A stretch of 50,387 nt of DNA, taken from contig CAYLJX010000004.1 of NCBI GenBank assembly GCA_964384235.1, positions 81,916-132,302 of the forward strand, in the 5' to 3' direction. This DNA is from an uncultured Bdellovibrionales bacterium (GTDB lineage Bacteria; Patescibacteriota; Minisyncoccia; Moranbacterales; UBA1568). This document shows positions 2,045-9,680 of this stretch, piece after piece; position 1 is the stretch's first letter; every line of letters begins with the position of its first letter. A program made the translations under genes and the position numbers. The notes below the pieces were generated by a model that ran no database searches, was not told the DNA's origin, and was given only the letters and a program-made list of their open reading frames with translations.

Positions 2045-4162
2045 TCACTTGGCGGCCGCCTGACTCGCATAGATCTTGCGCGTTTCCTGGTCATAGCGCT
2101 CCCCGTCGACGATGTCGAGCTCTTTGTCGCATTTCGGACAGAAATCGTGTTCACCGGCGAGGTAGCCGTGCTTGGGACAGATCGAGAAGGTCGGCGTGAT
2201 GGTGATATACGGCAGACGGAAATTGGAGAGAACGCTCCGCACCAGGCTGCGACAAGCCGTACCGGAACTGACCTTTTCGTTCATGTAGCAGTGGAGCACC
2301 GTGCCGCCGGTATACTTGGTCTGGAGTTTGTCCTGGAGCTCGAGCACCTCGAAGACATCGTCCGTGTATCCCACCGGCACCTGCGAGGAATTGGTGTAGT
2401 ACGGAGCCGCGTCCGTCCCGGCCTGAAGGATCTCCGGGAAGCGCTTCTTGTCTTCCTTGGCGAAACGGTAGGTCGTCCCCTCGGCCGGCGTCGCCTCGAG
2501 ATTGTAGAAGTTATTGGTCTCTTCCTGATAGTCCTTGATCTTTTCCCTCATGAAGTCGAGCACTTCTTCGGCGAACCGCTGCCCCCACTCGGTAGTGATG
2601 TTTTCCTTGTCGTCCGTGAAGTTCCGGATGGCTTCGTTGAGACCGTTGATACCGATCGTGGAGAAATGGTTCTTGAGGTACCCGAGGTAGCGTTTGGTGT
2701 ACGGGAAGAGGCCGCGGTCGATCCACTGCTGGATGGTCTTACGCTTGAGCTCGAGGGACGTCTTGGCCAGCTCCATGAGATAACCGACGCGCTCGAGGAA
2801 CTTTTCCTTGTCCCCCTTGGCGAGATGCCCGATGCGTGCCGCATTGATCGTGACGACACCGATCGATCCGGTCATCTCCGCCGACCCGAAGAGTCCGCCG
2901 CCGCGCTTGCGCAGTTCGCGGAGATCGAGTTGCAACCGGCAGCACATGGAGCGTACGTCGCCGGGATTGAGGTCGGAGTTGATGAAGTTCTGGAAATACG
3001 GCGTCCCATACTTGGCCGTCATCTCGAAGAGCGGGAGGTTCTTCGTATCTTCCCAATCGAAGTCCTTGCCGATGTTGTAGGTCGGGATGGGAAAGGTGAA
3101 AGTACGGCCGCGCGCGTCACCACGACTCATGATCTCGATGAAGGCGCGGTTGATGATGTCCATCTCGTTCTGGAGTTCGCCGTAGGTGTAGGCGAAGGGT
3201 TCGCCGCCGAGGAGAAGCCGCTTCTCGCGCATATCCGCCGGACAGTCCCAGTCGAGAGTGATGTTGGTGAAGGGAGTCTGCGTCCCCCAGCGCGACGGGA
3301 TGTTGAGGTTGAAGACGAACGACTGGATGTTCTGGTAGACGTACTCGTACACTTTGTCCGTGACATACTTCTCCTTGGCCTCTTCGGAAACAAAGATGAC
3401 CGCATACTTTTCGATATCGTCACGCAGTTCCAATTCGTATTTCTTCACGAAAGGCGCGAGATAGGTGTCGAAGCTCGAGAAGGCCTGAGCACCCGCCCAC
3501 TCGTTCTGGAGCGTCCCGAGAAAATTGACCATCTGCGAGACCGCCGAGGAGAGGTGCTTGGGCGGAGCGGACTCCACCTTGTTGGGCACGCCGTTGAAGC
3601 CTTCCTCGAGGAGCACCCGGAGACTCCAGCCGGCGCAGTAGCCGGAGAACATGTCGAGATCGTGGATGTGGTAGTCACCGTTCCGATGCGCGTCGCCCAC
3701 CGCTTTGGGATAGATGTGCGAGAGCCAGTAGTTGGCGATGACGCCGCCGGCGGTGTTGAGGATGAGGCCGCCGAGGGAGTAACCTTGGTTGGAGTTGGCA
3801 TTGACGCGCCAGTCGAGTTTTTCGAGGTACTCGCGCACCGCCTTCTCCACTTCCACCACCACGTTCTTGTCCTCGCGCACTTCGCGGCGCTTCTCACGGT
3901 AGAGGATGTAGGCCTTGGCGATATCGGCGTAGTCGTAGCGGATGAGCGTCTCCTCGACCTGGTCCTGGACCTGCTCGACCGTCGGGATCTTGTCTTTGAA
4001 GGCGGTTTCCAATTCATTGAGGACATCCTCGGCCAGCACGCGGGCTGTCACGGCATCCTTCTTCTCGACCGCCTCGGCCGCCTTCTCGATGGCTGTCTCG
4101 ATTTTTCCGAGGTCGAAGTCGACGATGCTGCCGTTGCGTTTCTGGATCTTGCAGATGGGCAT
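2045..4162 (-). CDS. nrdD: Anaerobic ribonucleoside-triphosphate reductase, large piece (ATP-cone + barrel + Zn site, lacking the glycyl-radical loop)
   Basis: 705-aa ORF. N-terminal ATP-cone (MPICKIQKRNGSIVDFDLGKIETAIEKA), class III RNR core, C-terminal 'CPKH-x11-CPKC' zinc site. Terminates 25 aa later without an RVxGY motif. Confidence 0.92.
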   Translation of the reverse strand: MPICKIQKRNGSIVDFDLGKIETAIEKAAEAVEKKDAVTARVLAEDVLNELETAFKDKIPTVEQVQDQVEETLIRYDYADIAKAYILYREKRREVREDKNVVVEVEKAVREYLEKLDWRVNANSNQGYSLGGLILNTAGGVIANYWLSHIYPKAVGDAHRNGDYHIHDLDMFSGYCAGWSLRVLLEEGFNGVPNKVESAPPKHLSSAVSQMVNFLGTLQNEWAGAQAFSSFDTYLAPFVKKYELELRDDIEKYAVIFVSEEAKEKYVTDKVYEYVYQNIQSFVFNLNIPSRWGTQTPFTNITLDWDCPADMREKRLLLGGEPFAYTYGELQNEMDIINRAFIEIMSRGDARGRTFTFPIPTYNIGKDFDWEDTKNLPLFEMTAKYGTPYFQNFINSDLNPGDVRSMCCRLQLDLRELRKRGGGLFGSAEMTGSIGVVTINAARIGHLAKGDKEKFLERVGYLMELAKTSLELKRKTIQQWIDRGLFPYTKRYLGYLKNHFSTIGINGLNEAIRNFTDDKENITTEWGQRFAEEVLDFMREKIKDYQEETNNFYNLEATPAEGTTYRFAKEDKKRFPEILQAGTDAAPYYTNSSQVPVGYTDDVFEVLELQDKLQTKYTGGTVLHCYMNEKVSSGTACRSLVRSVLSNFRLPYITITPTFSICPKHGYLAGEHDFCPKCDKELDIVDGERYDQETRKIYASQAAAK

Positions 4163-4294: not shown

Positions 4295-5368
4295 TCAACT
4301 TCCTTCGAGGCTTTTCTTGAGCTTCTTTCTGGCGCGGCTGAGGGAGAGTTTGACGGCGTTTTCGCTCTTCCCGAGCATCGAGGCGATTTCCTGGAGGGAA
4401 AAGCCCTCCCGGTACTTCAGAGACAACATCTTCCGCTCGGATTCATTCAAAACAGGCGCCTCCCAAAGGAAGCTTGCCGGGGAAAGATCATACCCCGATT
4501 CCACCTCGTAGACCTCGTTTTCCAGGAAGAGAGGCTGTTTCTTACGGAAGTGATTAAGGAGGACACTGTGCGCCACCCGCTGCAGGTAGGTGCCATACGA
4601 GGCATTGGAAGACTGGAAGCCGGACAGGTAACGGAACGCTCGATAAAAAGTGTCCTGCGCCAGATCCTCCGAAAGCTCCTCGTCGCACAGATGCCGCAGG
4701 AAGTGCCGCCTCACCTGGTGACGGTATTTCTCATAGAGTGCCTGAAACCGCTTCGGATCGGTCTGTGCCGCCAGGAGGAGTTCCCGATCATCCTCACGCG
4801 AGCGGAACCGCTCCTTGGTCGGCTCCACGAGATCCTCATGGAGAATATCCGCAAGCGTTCGGATTTCAGCGGAATCGGTCGACTCACGCGTCCCGATCGC
4901 CCGAAGCAGCCAGTTTCGCCGTTCTGTTTCAGTAGCCCGCCTCCCGCCGAAAACATGCCTGAATTCATTCGTGAAACGCTCCCGATCGTCCTCCCGTACC
5001 AGATGCCCTACCTGCAGAGCGATGAAGTATCCGATTCCGCCCTGCTTGTCCGCAATCGGAGCGACCGCGAGGAACTCCGGGTATCGTTTCTTGTCTTTGC
5101 GCGCGTTGGTGATCGGGGAAACGAACGGTTCCCGCCGTTCCTCGATGGTCTCCCAAAAAGCGTCATAGAACGCCCGGGGCATGTGCCCGCCCCAGAGTTT
5201 CCCCGGCGCCTTGCCGACCACTTCTCCGAGCGAAAATCCCGTCCGTCTCTCCACGGCGCCATTGGCATAGAGCGCCGTCCCGACGGAGTCCGTCAACAAA
5301 AAAACGCCCCCTGCGGTATCGAATGCCTGTTTAGTGAGAGTGGGGAGAGTAGTCATATTCTCCATCAT
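4295..5368 (-). CDS. PAS-domain fused RNA polymerase sigma-70 family (ECF-type) sigma factor
   Basis: 357-aa ORF. The N-terminal ~120 aa look PAS-like (LYANGAVERRTGFSLGEVVGK..PGKLWGG..). The C-terminal half has sigma region 2 (DLAQDTFYRAFRYLSGF) and region 4 HTH (ESERKMLSLKYREGFSLQEIASMLGKSENAVKLSLSRARKKLK). Confidence 0.8.
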   Translation of the reverse strand: MMENMTTLPTLTKQAFDTAGGVFLLTDSVGTALYANGAVERRTGFSLGEVVGKAPGKLWGGHMPRAFYDAFWETIEERREPFVSPITNARKDKKRYPEFLAVAPIADKQGGIGYFIALQVGHLVREDDRERFTNEFRHVFGGRRATETERRNWLLRAIGTRESTDSAEIRTLADILHEDLVEPTKERFRSREDDRELLLAAQTDPKRFQALYEKYRHQVRRHFLRHLCDEELSEDLAQDTFYRAFRYLSGFQSSNASYGTYLQRVAHSVLLNHFRKKQPLFLENEVYEVESGYDLSPASFLWEAPVLNESERKMLSLKYREGFSLQEIASMLGKSENAVKLSLSRARKKLKKSLEGS

Positions 5369-5431: not shown

Positions 5432-6205
5432 TCAGGGCGTAAGTGTCTCGTCCAAGAATTGGAGCGTTTTCTCCCAGGCGTCCGCCGTTTCCTCCGGCGC
5501 ATAATTGTCACCGCTCGGATTGGCAAAGGCATGCCCCACGCCGGGGTAGACATGGATCTCATTGGGGACGTCGGCCTGATCGAGACCGATCCGAAACTCT
5601 TCCACTTCCGCGACCGGGATCGACGTATCCTGATCGCCGAATATCCCAAGGACCGGCCAAGTGATACTCTCGAGTTCCGCCGGATCCGTTACCAGTTGCC
5701 CGTAATAGATGACCGTCGCATCAAGCGGCACACCGGAAAGAGCAAGTTGCAATGACTGCCCTCCTCCGAAGCACCAGCCGAGCGAGCCGACCGCCGGCGC
5801 ATCCATATCCAGGAGAAACTGCACCGCGGCTGCCAGATTGTCCGACGCTTCTCCTTGATCGATCGATCCGGAGAGTTCCCGGGCCCGCTCCGGCGCCGTC
5901 GCGACCTCGCCGCGGTAGAGATCGACCGCCAGGACCTGGTACCCCTCACCGGCCAACCGATCGGCAGCCGCCTTGATATTGTCATTGAGACCCCACCACT
6001 CGTGGATCATGACGACCCCCGGACGGCTCTCCGAGCTCCTGGGACGGACGAAGTATCCTTTGGCGGAAGGGAAGTACTCGACATTATCCCGTGAAACCAC
6101 CTGGTATTTCACTTCCTGCGCGTTGGCCGGCGCGACACCGAAAACCGCCCCTCCGACAAGAAGGGTGCTTGCCCCCACAATAATCATAAAGAAAAGATGT
6201 CTCAT
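5432..6205 (-). CDS. Secreted dienelactone hydrolase family protein
   Basis: Signal-like start MRHLFFMIIVGASTLLVGGAVFGVAPANA (ATG 6203-6205). 'PGVVMIHEWWGLNDNIK', nucleophile elbow 'GWCFGG', 'YPGVGHAF'. The longer GTG-started ORF to 6391 runs through a tRNA-like fragment and a terminator, so it was trimmed. Confidence 0.8.
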   Translation of the reverse strand: MRHLFFMIIVGASTLLVGGAVFGVAPANAQEVKYQVVSRDNVEYFPSAKGYFVRPRSSESRPGVVMIHEWWGLNDNIKAAADRLAGEGYQVLAVDLYRGEVATAPERARELSGSIDQGEASDNLAAAVQFLLDMDAPAVGSLGWCFGGGQSLQLALSGVPLDATVIYYGQLVTDPAELESITWPVLGIFGDQDTSIPVAEVEEFRIGLDQADVPNEIHVYPGVGHAFANPSGDNYAPEETADAWEKTLQFLDETLTP

Positions 6206-6298
6206 AGCGTCTATAAGAAATACATCTTTCCAAGAGACATGTTTCAGGGAAAAGAAAAAGTTACCTGCTTTCCGTTCGAATCCCGTTCCCATCACACA

Positions 6299-6329
6299 AA
6301 ACAAAAAGAAGGATCCTGGAATCCTTCTT
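6299..6329 (-). terminator. Rho-independent terminator after the tRNA-Asp 3' fragment copy
   Basis: Minus strand AAGAAGGATTCCAGGATCCTTCTTTTTGTTTTG: hairpin plus U-run. Same flanks as the terminator at 6468..6502, but with a different stem sequence. Confidence 0.7.
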
Positions 6330-6358
6330 TTGTTTAATGGGCGGGAGCGACGGGATTC
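6328..6358 (-). repeat. Direct 31-nt copy of the tRNA-Asp 3' end (T-loop half, T-stem 3' strand, acceptor 3' strand, trailer)
   Basis: ttttgtttaatgggcgggagcgacgggattc is identical at 6328..6358 and 6501..6531 (173-nt period). Confidence 0.9.
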
Positions 6359-6467
6359 CTCCTCCCCCCATCGCTTCGGCAGAGCCTCCACGGTTCCTCC
6401 GGAGCCTGGGTTTTCAAAAAGCCAAGCAGTTGGCTTTTTGAAATACCCTTCTCATCCGTCGTCTGAC

Positions 6468-6502
6468 ACAAAACAAAAGGAAAGGTCTTAAGGCCTTTCC
6501 TT
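6468..6502 (-). terminator. Rho-independent terminator after tRNA-Asp
   Basis: Minus strand AAGGAAAGGCCTTAAGACCTTTCCTTTTGTTTTG: 9-bp stem plus U-run. Confidence 0.75.
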
Positions 6503-6514
6503 TTGTTTAATGGG

Positions 6515-6588
6515 CGGGAGCGACGGGATTCGAACCCGCGACCTCGACAGTGACAGTGTCGCGCTCTAACCAGCTGAGCTACGCCCCC
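6515..6588 (-). tRNA. tRNA-Asp (anticodon GTC), CCA not encoded
   Basis: Folded by hand: GGGGGCG/CGCTCCC acceptor (one G-U), D arm GCTC..GAGC, anticodon stem CGACA/TGTCG with loop CTGTCAC, T arm GCGGG-TTCGAAT-CCCGT, discriminator G73. Confidence 0.9.
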
Positions 6589-6593
6589 ATGTT

Positions 6594-7030: not shown

Positions 7031-7104
7031 TAGCAGGGGCGAGACTCGAACTCGCGACCTCAGCGTTATGAGTGCTGCGTTCTAGCCAGCTGAACTACCC
7101 TGCC
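7031..7104 (-). tRNA. tRNA with CAT anticodon (elongator Met or Ile2/lysidine type), CCA not encoded
   Basis: GGCAGGG/CCCTGCT acceptor, D arm GTTC..GAAC, anticodon loop CTCATAA, T arm GCGAG-TTCGAGT-CTCGC, A73. Confidence 0.85.
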
Positions 7105-9003: not shown

Positions 9004-9068
9004 CTAATCAAAAGACGATACTTCACTTCCGTCAGAGGCGGACAGGCGTTGCGGGGGTAGTAAAATTG

Positions 9069-9089
9069 CTTGTTGCGGGGGTGGGATTC
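9069..9089 (-). repeat. Direct 21-nt copy of the tRNA-fMet 3' end
   Basis: cttgttgcgggggtgggattc is identical at 9069..9089 and 9178..9198 (109-nt period). A third 11-nt copy, gttgcgggggt, sits at 9049..9059. Confidence 0.9.
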
Positions 9090-9181
9090 CCTTTCAGGCC
9101 TGGGCATCGCCAGAGGCTCACCCTTCTCATCCCACCGCGAGCCAAGCAGTTGGCTCGCTCCCCTTCACTTCGTTTCACTTG

Positions 9182-9255
9182 TTGCGGGGGTGGGATTCGA
9201 ACCCACGACCTTGTGGTTATGAGCCACACGAGCTGCCAGACTGCTCTACCCCGCT
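9182..9255 (-). tRNA. tRNA-Met (CAT), initiator-like, CCA not encoded
   Basis: AGCGGGGTAGAGCAG..CTCATAA..GTGGGTTCGAATCCCACCCCCGCAA. Has a 1:72 A/A mismatch and A11:U24, as in bacterial initiators, but only two of the three usual G-C pairs at the base of the anticodon stem. Confidence 0.85.
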
Positions 9256-9427: not shown

Positions 9428-9501
9428 TGGGTGATCCAAGACTCGAACTTGGGACCTCGACATTATCAGTGTCGCGCTCTAACCACCTGAGCTAATCACC
9501 C
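9428..9501 (-). tRNA. tRNA-Ile (GAT), CCA not encoded
   Basis: GGGTGAT/ATCACCC acceptor, anticodon loop CTGATAA, T arm CCAAG-TTCGAGT-CTTGG, A73. Confidence 0.92.
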
Positions 9502-9558: not shown

Positions 9559-9583
9559 ATGTGGACCCGGGCAGGAATCGAAC
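9559..9583 (-). repeat. Diverged copy of the tRNA-Ala T-arm 3' half plus acceptor 3' strand
   Basis: Minus strand GTTCGATTCCTGCCCGGGTCCACA versus the genuine GGTTCGAATCCGCTCGGGTCCACA, 47 nt upstream. Confidence 0.8.
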
Positions 9584-9607
9584 TACTCGGCCTTCGGCCT
9601 GCGTTTG

Positions 9608-9680
9608 TGGACCCGAGCGGATTCGAACCGCTGACCCCCGCATTGCAAATGCGGTGCTCTACCAACTAAGCTACGGGCCC
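9608..9680 (-). tRNA. tRNA-Ala (TGC), CCA not encoded
   Basis: GGGCCCG/CGGGTCC acceptor with G3:U70, anticodon loop TTTGCAA, T arm AGCGG-TTCGAAT-CCGCT, A73. Confidence 0.92.

What the first reader, a model, noticed from the sequence alone, without database searches (positions are those of the whole stretch)
6415..6460. The Asp- and fMet-associated elements share conserved inserts, and their closing helices match each parental T stem
- Two identical blocks occur in both elements, though in opposite order.
  - AGCCAAGCAGTTGGCT is a hairpin (stem GCCAA/TTGGC, 4-nt loop) at 6420..6435 and 9140..9155.
  - ACCCTTCTCATCC is at 6445..6457 and 9120..9132.
- On the RNA strand, the block AUGAGAAGGGU is immediately preceded by GACGG in the Asp element and by GGUGGG in the fMet element.
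- These segments are complementary to the element's own downstream AUCCCGUC or AUCCCACC. The pairings are 6454..6460 with 6349..6356, and 9129..9136 with 9080..9087.
- Each element therefore looks like a T-arm whose loop has been replaced by a conserved insert (AUGAGAAGGGU...GGA). Its helix follows the specific tRNA next to it.
- This points to a family of related RNA or DNA elements rather than random debris.
- Possible explanations:
  - decayed T-loop-targeting integrative elements
  - tRNA-3'-end mimics acting on processing, CCA addition or 3' exonucleases
  - leader/attenuator modules
Basis: partly seen in the sequence, partly recalled or inferred. Interest (0 to 1): 0.64.

Follow-up and report, generated by a model that had tools for sequence, protein, structure and literature searches.

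The report
Folded mini-elements trailing tRNA genes
Behind two tRNA genes of this ultra-small (Moranbacteria/CPR) bacterium sit two related, protein-less, tightly folded insertions. Each is bracketed by a copy of its tRNA's own tail and rebuilds a T-stem with that copy. They belong to a family I could not find described, and how it moves or acts is still unknown.

Summary
Both shared blocks lie at the stated coordinates, and the short helices match each tRNA's T-stem 3' strand.

Both elements belong to one family. It was recovered behind fMet, Lys, Ser, Asn, Gln and Asp tRNA genes in about 30 Moranbacteria/CPR contigs. The sense-strand layout is:
- tRNA tail and a purine-rich leader;
- a hairpin with a CUGC loop;
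- a 6-bp T-stem mimic;
- a three-way junction: GAGAA, GGG-variable hairpin-CCC, AG, mini-hairpin, GA;
- a tail copy starting at T-loop G57.

Covariation strongly supports all four helices. The "opposite order" reflects two architectures: the CUGC hairpin lies either 5' of the T-stem mimic (fMet) or on the tip of P2 (Asp).

Related genomes show intact, mutated, truncated and empty sites. A related element sits at the topA 3' end between 58-nt copies of the gene end. It is 95.6% conserved where synonymous sites are saturated.

There was no match in Rfam, phages, plasmids, viral contigs or the literature searched.

My best reading is a non-autonomous, structure-defined insertion element. I infer that it acts as a folded single strand, with an unidentified partner enzyme. 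A role as RNA is not excluded.

The parts
9182..9255 (-). Initiator-type tRNA-Met (CAU) gene. Its last 21 nt (9178-9198, from T-loop G57 to 4 nt past the discriminator) form the proximal copy of the direct repeat.
   Evidence: D5
9159..9177 (-). Purine-rich leader of the fMet unit (UGAAACGAAGUGAAGGGGA). It can pair loosely with the pyrimidine-rich acceptor strand of the tail copy, but this pairing is not tRNA-specific.
9137..9158 (-). Hairpin H1 (GCGAGCCAA-CUGC-UUGGCUCGC).
   Evidence: 8 of 9 pairs change on both sides across the family; the AACUGCUU loop is in 12 of 17 units
9129..9136 (-). a'1, the 5' strand of the T-stem mimic P1 (GGUGGGAU). It pairs with A59-C66 of the tail copy at 9080-9087.
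9088..9128 (-). Three-way-junction core of the fMet unit: GAGAA (9124-9128), P2 GGG...CCC (9102-9123), AG (9100-9101), P3 mini-hairpin GCCU-GAA-AGG (9090-9099), GA (9088-9089).
   Evidence: model R1 scores 93.9 bits
9069..9089 (-). Distal direct copy of the tRNA-fMet tail (GAAUCCCACCCCCGCAACAAG).
   Evidence: D5, 21 nt, 100% identical
9048..9058 (-). Third, partial copy of the fMet acceptor 3' strand (ACCCCCGCAAC). It is probably the relic of an older unit.
   Evidence: D10
6515..6588 (-). tRNA-Asp (GUC) gene. The proximal repeat copy is 6500-6531.
   Evidence: D7
6471..6508 (-). Terminator-like perfect hairpin 1. It lies between tRNA-Asp and the element core.
   Evidence: I2
6454..6460 (-). 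a'1 of the Asp unit (GACGGAU). It is complementary to AUCC(C)GUC of the tail copy at 6349-6356.
6359..6453 (-). Core of the Asp unit (type 2): GAGAA (6449-6453); P2 (6408-6448), whose tip is the shared CUGC hairpin (6420-6435); AG (6406-6407); and an enlarged P3 region (6359-6405). The P3 region contains GAGGCUCUGCCGAAGCGAUG and AUGGGGGGAG, an imperfect inverted copy of the acceptor 3' strand.
   Evidence: R1 scores 21 bits, E 0.006; relatives in L258 and L282
6327..6358 (-). Distal direct copy of the tRNA-Asp tail plus the start of the trailer (32 nt exact).
   Evidence: D7
6304..6331 (-). Terminator-like hairpin 2. It has the same flanks as hairpin 1 but a different stem.
   Evidence: (I21, D9, D11)
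6262..6295 (-). Truncated start of a third unit type: GUGUGAUGG followed by an inverted copy of the Asp T-loop and T-stem (ACGGGAUUCGAAC = 6274-6286). The same opening is seen in complete units behind tRNA-Asp in L125 and L281. With the distal tail it forms a long hairpin.
   Evidence: (I11)
9561..9602 (-). Mini-unit behind tRNA-Ala: GCAGG, GGCC-GAA-GGCC hairpin, GAGUAGUUCGAUU, CCUGC, CCGGGUCCAC. The tail copy has a different T-stem, and the 5' arm covaries with it. The GAGUAGUUC end is shared with the Asp unit of L281.

Best explanation
What it is (shown):
- These are two copies of a family of small (about 90-170 nt), protein-less, strongly structured elements of Patescibacteria.
- They lie immediately 3' of tRNA genes, in the tRNA's orientation, between two direct copies of the tRNA's 3' part. 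The distal copy always begins at T-loop G57.
- Each unit carries a leader and a hairpin with a CUGC loop.
- Each unit also has a short arm that forms a 6-8 bp T-stem-like helix with the distal tail copy.
- The core is a conserved three-way junction: GAGAA / GGG-variable hairpin-CCC / AG / mini-hairpin / GA.

How it most likely works (inferred):
- It is a non-autonomous insertion element.
- It enters at, or just behind, the tRNA's T-loop-to-3'-end segment and leaves the gene intact, because one tail copy stays joined to the tRNA body. The other, redundant copy is then free to decay.
- The conserved fold is the substrate recognised by a trans-acting nicking or recombination activity that I did not identify. 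That fold is the junction plus the T-stem mimic, which places the G57 boundary at the junction.
- The fold probably forms in a single strand of the tRNA-sense polarity.
- The target-matched arm is needed to rebuild a T-arm-like context at the distal boundary, so it must follow each tRNA.
- Related members use the same logic at a protein gene end (topA).
For: Family and structure:
- A pattern scan of metagenome contigs gave 32 loci. About 24 are true units behind fMet, Lys, Ser(GGA/GCU), Asn and Gln tRNAs.
- L125, with three tandem units, and L176 were found independently.
- All four helices covary. The covariance model recovers every unit at 72-102 bits.

Insertion-like behaviour:
- tRNA-Asp carries units in the window, L125, L281 and L282. 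It is empty in L252, L253, L272/L284, L283, L286 and L287.
- In an unbiased sample taken through DprA, the fMet unit is intact (L284), has a mutated core (L281, L283), is truncated (L286), or is absent with no model match (L282, L285, L287).
- Tandem arrays occur in L125, L256 and L260.
- Distal tails decay in L252, L255 and L257. In L257/L275, a'1 still pairs perfectly (9 bp) with the functional proximal tail.

The arm is matched to the tail:
- The arm is a Watson-Crick complement of the tail, not a copy of the tRNA's own 5' T-stem strand. tRNA-Lys has A50 opposite C64, and the arm has G at that place.

Hints for a DNA-level element:
- Terminator-like hairpins lie between the tRNA and the core in the window's Asp unit, L125-Asp, L255, L258 and L270.
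- The helices are almost purely Watson-Crick: G.U 15 against A.C 11 of 452 cells.
- Sense and antisense strands fold equally well.
- P3 loops are mostly GNA triloops closed by C-G. From my own knowledge, this is the very stable d(GCGAAGC)-type DNA mini-hairpin.

Generality:
- At the topA 3' end of L283 and L287, a related element lies between 58-nt copies of the gene end. It has the same AACUGCUU hairpin and the GGAGCGAUG motif.
- Its arm AUUGUUUUCGUG is the exact inverse of CACGAAAACAAU, which spans the left repeat boundary.
Against: - No enzyme partner, excised form or recent insertion was seen.
- Reads and contigs from 8 metagenomes show only the occupied form. The k = 31 graph cannot resolve a 32-nt repeat.
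- The topA element is 95.6% identical between L283 and L287, while topA third codon positions are 57.6% identical and the displaced gene-end copy 63.8%. Three of its six differences keep G.U pairs on the sense strand. That looks like purifying selection on a functional, possibly RNA, molecule rather than a passive insertion.
- fMet units sit inside a tRNA operon with no terminator, so they must be transcribed.
- How the arm and tail copy would be rewritten for a new target is unexplained.
Confidence: 0.45

Rival explanations
1. A functional cis- or trans-acting RNA. The unit would be co-transcribed with the tRNA (or the mRNA) and fold into the three-way junction. Its tail copy and anti-tail arm would act in 3'-end processing, stability or quality control. 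Examples are a minihelix-like substrate or decoy for RNase Z, RNase P or CCA-adding enzyme, or a protective 3' structure.
For: - All helices covary strongly and the unpaired junction nucleotides are invariant.
- The topA element is as conserved as second codon positions (95.6% against 94.9%), while neutral sites are saturated. Three of its six changes are G.U-preserving on the sense strand.
- The invariant G39 pairs with C or U at N66.
- fMet units lie inside the fMet-Met-Asp operon without a terminator.
- Orientation is always that of the gene.
Against: - Units are dispensable. They are absent, truncated or carry a mutated core in related genomes at the same tRNA.
- Tandem arrays and decaying distal tails look selfish.
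- Terminator-like hairpins precede the core in several units.
- G.U pairs are rare (3% of cells), and sense and antisense fold equally well.
- Acceptor-side pairing is not tRNA-specific, and in some units it would bury the 3' end.
- No Rfam family matches.
- No transcript data could be found.
Confidence: 0.25
2. Enzyme-free spread by natural transformation and homologous recombination. The gene-end copy on the far side would serve as a portable homology arm, paired with the conserved gene body on the near side. The cassette could then enter any related genome, whatever lies downstream. The compact fold would only help the heterologous loop to be tolerated.
For: - Targets are the most conserved sequences available: tRNA tails and the topA end.
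- No protein is linked to the units.
- CPR bacteria carry competence genes; DprA lies beside this very tRNA cluster.
- The unit in L264 is flanked by tails of a different tRNA-Ser than the resident one, as if imported.
- The W-Ala tail copy carries the T-stem of other Moranbacteria tRNA-Ala genes.
Against: - This does not explain the conserved junction sequence, the covarying hairpins or the CUGC loop.
- It does not explain the fixed G57 boundary or the target-complementary arm.
- A 20-nt arm is marginal for RecA (my own knowledge).
- Within-genome similarity of proximal and distal trailers (L176, L253, L272) fits local duplication as well as import.
Confidence: 0.15
3. Ordinary scars: attL-attR remnants (CIME-like) left by tyrosine- or serine-recombinase islands that integrate in the T-loop of tRNA genes. 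The conserved core would be the remains of attP arms.
For: - A direct repeat of the tRNA 3' part starting in the T-loop is the classic signature.
- The distal copy decays.
- Serine-recombinase elements with inverted spare att sites at tRNA genes were reported by earlier notes of this scan (not checked here).
Against: - No recombinase is present in any of about 40 loci. A serine-recombinase active-site motif search found nothing credible.
- The core is absent from 2.9 million viral contigs, from phage records and from plasmid records.
- Compensatory evolution of three hairpins is not expected of double-stranded arm sites.
- The inverted arm is 60-100 nt from the tail, not 7 nt as in a core site.
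- The same design occurs at a protein gene end without a T-loop.
Confidence: 0.1
4. Chance similarity or a purely local duplication within this window.
For: Only two full copies exist in the 50-kb window.
Against: - The 16-mer match is expected 0.01 times by chance.
- Dozens of homologous units exist in unrelated samples, with covariation.
Confidence: 0.01

Closest known systems
Integrative elements in tRNA/tmRNA genes (T-loop sublocation) and their integrase-less derivatives (CIMEs)
   Same: - There is a direct repeat of the tRNA 3' part that begins in the T-loop.
- The gene stays intact and the redundant copy decays.
- Units stack in tandem at one tRNA.
   Different: - Units are 90-170 nt and carry no integrase or any other gene.
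- They have a conserved, covarying three-way junction.
- The arm complementary to the tail lies 60-100 nt from it, so it is not a core-type inverted repeat.
- The core was not found in viral, phage or plasmid collections.
Folded single-strand recombination sites: integron attC and the CTX-phi attP(+) hairpin
   Same: - Two imperfectly inverted arms are separated by a variable or structured spacer.
- In one strand they fold into a duplex that imitates the double-stranded target.
- The terminal structure is variable (P2 here).
- Short units form arrays next to one entry site.
   Different: - No R/L boxes (GTTRRRY) or dif-like arms are seen by eye.
- No IntI was looked for.
- The arms are copied from each individual target gene rather than being a fixed site.
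- The duplication is long (20-75 nt).
REPIN/RAYT and IS200/IS605-type hairpin elements (HUH single-strand transposition)
   Same: - They are small, non-coding, hairpin-dominated and strand-oriented.
- Stems are kept by compensatory change.
- Target recognition in IS608 uses base pairing with a guide next to a hairpin foot (my own knowledge).
   Different: - Those elements make no long target duplication and do not copy the target.
- No TnpA or RAYT gene was seen here.
- The fixed boundary after GTTC resembles the IS91 target (my own knowledge), but the ends are not conserved.
R2 retrotransposon 5' ribozyme that pairs with flanking 28S rRNA
   Same: The element is co-oriented with a structural-RNA gene, and part of its fold is made with host-gene sequence.
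   Different: - No ribozyme family matched.
- No reverse transcriptase was seen in the loci read.
- The G.U-poor helices argue against an RNA-based constraint.

Membership tests
Patescibacteria tRNA-tail mini-element family (no description found; defined here by model R1) | The unit lies directly 3' of a tRNA gene, on the same strand. | tested here: met
Patescibacteria tRNA-tail mini-element family (no description found; defined here by model R1) | A direct copy of the tRNA tail begins at T-loop G57. | tested here: met
   (D5, D7); all type-1 units end in GAATCC plus the tail
Patescibacteria tRNA-tail mini-element family (no description found; defined here by model R1) | Helices H1/P1/P2/P3 with the junction GAGAA...AG...GA. 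| tested here: met
   The fMet unit scores 93.9 bits. The Asp unit scores only 21 bits (E 0.006) because its architecture is permuted. Covariation is shown.
tRNA-targeting integrase/recombinase islands (attL/attR) | A recombinase gene lies between the repeats, or demonstrably related full-length elements exist. | tested here: not met
   The units are 90-170 nt without an ORF. No serine-recombinase motif was found in about 40 loci. The core is absent from viral, phage and plasmid sets.
tRNA-targeting integrase/recombinase islands (attL/attR) | A direct repeat of the tRNA 3' segment is present. | tested here: met
Integron attC | R''/R' boxes (RYYYAAC / GTTRRRY) and an adjacent intI/attI. | not tested
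   No such boxes were seen by eye in the aligned units. No motif search for the boxes was run, and IntI was not searched for.
Known RNA families (Rfam 15, including hammerhead, twister, HDV, tmRNA and T-box) | A covariance-model match. | tested here: not met
   Only tRNA reached significance. Nothing hit the units at E <= 5 apart from noise.
IS200/IS605- or IS91-type HUH elements | Conserved ends and a target tetranucleotide, no target duplication, and a TnpA/Rep in the genome. | not testable with these tools
The long duplication argues against membership.

The most novel reading that the evidence does not exclude
A new class of protein-less mobile element whose specificity is written in nucleic acid.
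- A roughly 100-nt three-way-junction fold carries an arm complementary to the 3' end region of a conserved gene (tRNA, tmRNA, topA).
- That arm places the fold at the gene end.
- The insertion duplicates the gene end, so the gene survives.
- The arm is re-templated from each new target by a copy-back step.

This would be a retargetable, homology-programmed insertion system in CPR bacteria. It would be driven by an unknown host or mobile nicking enzyme; a GIY-YIG nuclease next to the same tRNA genes is one lead.
Probability: 0.3. Interest if true: 0.9.

Novelty: new variant of a known kind. Interest (0 to 1): 0.7.

Why it matters
- If these units are mobile, they are a compact and apparently widespread way of inserting DNA next to essential genes without harming them. 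Target choice would be encoded by a short complementary arm rather than by a protein site. That bears on genome plasticity in CPR bacteria and could point to a programmable insertion chemistry.
- If instead they are functional RNAs, they are a large unannotated RNA class attached to tRNA operons in a major bacterial radiation.
- Either way, they explain many "att-like scars" behind Patescibacteria tRNA genes and should be annotated.

Tried and rejected
- **Genome-wide tools.** I could make no census of the window's own genome and no co-occurrence test with proteins.
- **Loose core pattern on viral contigs.** It returned 120 hits, all by chance.
- **The single genome-contig scan.** The 19-base pattern was swamped by chance hits; only L176 was real among 120 rows. 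A 25-base pattern then worked on metagenome contigs.
- **Expression.** RNA runs hold only the tRNA words or a different copy of the P2 hairpin. The organism is not detectably expressed in them.
- **Population polymorphism.** Logan contigs show only the occupied form, and the repeat collapses the assembly graph.
- **Reading the conserved AUG AGA AGG as a small ORF behind the GGAGG-like leader.** By eye, the frames from the AUG in the units end after very different lengths and change with P2 length. No translation tool was run.
- **A specific acceptor-side inverted copy (a'2).** Self-matches are no better than cross-matches.
- **The arm as a duplicate of the tRNA's own 5' T-stem strand.** Rejected by the tRNA-Lys A50.C64 case.
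- **Hammerhead or other ribozyme cores.** No Rfam hit.
- **Serine recombinase nearby.** None found.
- **Literature.** Three full-text searches found no description.

Full report
**1. The observation**

All tRNA genes of the region are on the minus strand: Asp 6515-6588, Met 7031-7104, fMet 9182-9255, Ile 9428-9501 and Ala 9608-9680.

- AGCCAAGCAGTTGGCT lies at 6420-6435 and 9140-9155. 0.01 matches are expected by chance.
- ACCCTTCTCATCC lies at 6445-6457 and 9120-9132.

Each tRNA is followed by a direct copy of its own 3' part.
- Asp: 6327-6358 = 6500-6531 (32 nt exact).
- fMet: 9069-9089 = 9178-9198 (21 nt exact).
- Both copies begin at T-loop G57 (GAAUCC...).

The claimed helices exist on the tRNA-sense strand.
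- fMet: GGUGGGAU with AUCCCACC, a perfect 8 bp.
- Asp: GACGGAU with AUCC(C)GUC, 7 bp with one bulge.

**2. Finding relatives**

- The ABC exporter next to the fMet unit has no relative closer than 64% identity. The hits that carry names are Moranbacteria.
- One relative, L125, has the same Ala-Ile-fMet-Met-Asp cluster. It carries three tandem units behind fMet and a larger unit behind Asp.
- These copies gave a stricter pattern, GGATGAGAAGGG-N10-40-CCCAGGC-N5-35-RARTCC.
- That pattern found 32 metagenome contigs. About 24 are true units, behind fMet, Lys, Ser(GGA), Ser(GCU), Asn and Gln tRNAs.
- It found none in 2.9 million viral contigs.
- An earlier, looser scan of genome contigs was swamped by chance hits and yielded only L176.

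**3. Anatomy**

On the sense strand, a type-1 unit reads as follows:
- the tRNA tail;
- a purine-rich leader;
- hairpin H1, a 9-bp stem whose loop region is AACUGCUU in 12 of 17 units;
- G plus a'1 (NNNGGAU);
- GAGAA;
- P2, which is GGG, a variable hairpin and CCC;
- AG;
- P3, a 3-4-bp mini-hairpin that is often C-GAA-G;
- GA;
- AUCC..., the tail copy.

On 17 distinct units this structure is well supported.
- 93% of cells are paired, against 75% in shuffles.
- 15 pairs change on both sides.
- The covariation score is 0.507 against 0.157 (0 of 500 shuffles reach it).
- Sliding the partner columns collapses the signal.
- H1 changes on both sides at 8 of 9 pairs.

P1 pairs A59, U60 and N61-N64 of the tail.
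- The N65 position is a conserved mismatch (15 of 17 units).
- The invariant G then pairs with C or U at N66.
- The two tRNA-variable pairs covary: GC 11 / UA 6, and four pair types.

The arm is a Watson-Crick complement of the tail, not a duplicate of the tRNA's 5' T-stem strand. tRNA-Lys has A50 opposite C64, yet the arm carries G there.

The apparent outer pairing of the leader with the acceptor strand is generic purine-pyrimidine complementarity. It is not tRNA-specific.

**4. Why the blocks are in "opposite order"**

- The fMet unit is type 1. The CUGC hairpin (H1) lies 5' of a'1.
- The Asp unit is a second architecture.
  - It has no H1 upstream, and a terminator-like hairpin lies in the trailer.
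  - The same CUGC hairpin sits on the tip of P2.
  - Its P3 region is enlarged and contains GAGGCUCUGCCGAAGCGAUG. That sequence is homologous to the P2 interior of the fMet unit.
- The same layout recurs in L258 and, with a 15/16-identical hairpin (AGCCAGCUGCUUGGCU), behind tRNA-Asp of L282.
- The model built from type 1 sees the Asp unit only weakly (21 bits).

The window also holds two further relatives.
- A mini-unit lies behind tRNA-Ala (9561-9602).
- The truncated start of a third unit type lies at 6262-6295. It contains an inverted T-loop/T-stem copy, and its complete counterparts follow tRNA-Asp in L125 and L281.

**5. Behaviour across genomes**

An unbiased sample of seven more Moranbacteria clusters, reached through DprA, together with the pattern hits, shows the following.

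| Site | State | Loci |
|---|---|---|
| tRNA-Asp | occupied | window, L125, L281, L282 |
| tRNA-Asp | empty (tRNA followed directly by a terminator) | L252, L253, L272/L284, L283, L286, L287 |
| tRNA-fMet | unit intact | L284 |
| tRNA-fMet | core mutated (CACAGGC, CACCGGC) and distal tail damaged | L281, L283 |
| tRNA-fMet | unit truncated | L286 |
| tRNA-fMet | no unit recognised, no model match | L282, L285, L287 |

- Tandem arrays occur in L125, L256 and L260.
- Distal tails are often decayed. In L257/L275, a'1 still matches the functional proximal tail perfectly over 9 bp.
- In L264 a unit is flanked by tails of a different tRNA-Ser than the resident one.

This is the pattern expected of an insertion that comes, decays and goes. 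It is not the pattern of an indispensable part of the tRNA operon.

**6. DNA or RNA?**

Evidence for a DNA-level element:
- Terminator-like hairpins stand between the tRNA and the core in several units.
- Helices are almost purely Watson-Crick. G.U pairs are 15 of 452 cells and A.C pairs 11.
- Sense and antisense strands fold equally well, with RNA parameters (p = 0.65) and with DNA parameters.
- P3 loops are mostly GNA triloops closed by C-G. From my own knowledge these are unusually stable in DNA.

Evidence for an RNA or otherwise selected molecule:
- The model also hit the 3' end of topA in L283 and L287.
- There, a related element lies between two copies of the last 58 nt of topA. It has the same AACUGCUU hairpin and a GGAGCGAUG motif.
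- Its arm AUUGUUUUCGUG is the exact inverse of CACGAAAACAAU, which spans the left boundary of the repeat.
- Between the two genomes the element is 95.6% identical.
  - topA as a whole is 81.3% identical, with third codon positions at 57.6%.
  - The dprA-topA intergenic spacer is 44.5% identical.
  - The displaced gene-end copy is 63.8% identical.
- Three of the element's six differences keep G.U pairs on the sense strand.

That degree of conservation needs either purifying selection or repeated replacement from a circulating pool. I cannot tell which.

**7. Comparison with what is known**

- Rfam has nothing at these loci.
- Phage and plasmid records have nothing similar.
- Three full-text literature searches found no description.
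- The closest known kinds are integrase-borne islands in tRNA genes and their CIME remnants. They share the direct repeat, but the units have no integrase, a covarying fold and a distant arm.
- Folded single-strand sites such as integron attC and CTX-phi attP(+) share the logic of arms folding to imitate the target. They lack arms copied from each target and the long duplication.
- REPIN and IS200/IS605-type hairpin elements are also close.
- Earlier notes of this scan describe the same family in other Patescibacteria genomes. I treated them as leads. Here I re-derived the fold, the covariation and the empty sites independently.

**8. Verdict**

- The best-supported reading is a non-autonomous, structure-defined insertion element that duplicates the gene end. 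It is probably recognised as a folded single strand by an unidentified enzyme (confidence about 0.45).
- The rivals, in order, are a functional RNA (0.25), enzyme-free spread by transformation and recombination (0.15) and ordinary integrase scars (0.10).

Noticed in passing
L283:9390-9526 and L287:9355-9491: A related element lies directly after the topA stop codon. It has the AACTGCTT-loop hairpin and the GGAGCGATG motif. It is flanked by a 58-nt direct repeat of the topA 3' end; the displaced copy encodes a different C-terminus. The element is 95.6% identical between the two genomes, while topA third codon positions are 57.6% identical.
   Followed up: partly
L284:5193-5459 (also L272 and L281, between tRNA-Ile and tRNA-fMet): An 88-aa GIY-YIG nuclease gene (Pfam E 7e-11) runs into the 5' end of the tRNA-fMet gene. 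It is preceded by a duplicated, interrupted 5' fragment of that tRNA. This is a 5'-side counterpart of the 3'-side units and a possible source of breaks at tRNA genes. It is absent from the window.
   Followed up: partly
L281, trailer of tRNA-Ala (about 5600-5690, minus strand) and distal tail of the fMet unit (about 4470-4500): A small perfect palindrome (CCTGCCTGCC-GGCAGGCAGG) is inserted exactly between TTC and GAGT of the T-loop of a pseudo-tRNA-Ala 3' half. A near-identical palindrome sits inside the distal fMet tail copy. Its arms resemble the adjacent T-stem.
   Followed up: no
window 9561-9602: A mini-unit behind tRNA-Ala has a tail copy that keeps this genome's acceptor strand. Its T-stem (CCUGC, with a matching GCAGG arm) is the one used by tRNA-Ala of other Moranbacteria (L252, L284, L286, L287), not by this genome's own tRNA-Ala.
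   Followed up: partly
window 6471-6508 and 6304-6331: The two terminator-like hairpins after the two Asp tail copies have identical flanks (UUAAACAAAAG ... UUUUGUUUUGUGU) but entirely different, perfectly paired inner stems. Gradual divergence does not easily explain this.
   Followed up: no
window 6408-6451, seen in runs X1, X3, X25 and X27: Contigs from several wastewater metagenomes and metatranscriptomes carry the identical 44-nt P2 hairpin in a different flank (GGGGAAUC-AAGGG...CCCA-GGGUUCUGGGUGAUUCGCAGGCGCCUCUGG). So a further copy exists at another locus or in another organism.
   Followed up: no
L264:4131-4195: Between tRNA-Ser(GGA) and a type-1 unit lies a pseudo-tRNA fragment. It has a variable-arm-like hairpin, a full T-loop and a tail of another tRNA-Ser type, and its T-stem halves do not match each other. 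It looks like a chimeric junction in the T-loop.
   Followed up: no
L285, about 50-80 nt downstream of tRNA-Asp (2420-2496, minus strand): An orphan inverted copy of the tRNA-Asp T-arm (ACGATCCGGACTCGAACC) lies right after the terminator with no core. It resembles the truncated unit at window 6262-6295.
   Followed up: no
window 6511-6589 and 9178-9255: Neither tRNA-Asp nor tRNA-fMet encodes CCA in the correct register (GCCCA and ACAAG follow the acceptor stem). The fMet tRNA has the initiator C1xA72 mismatch.
   Followed up: no
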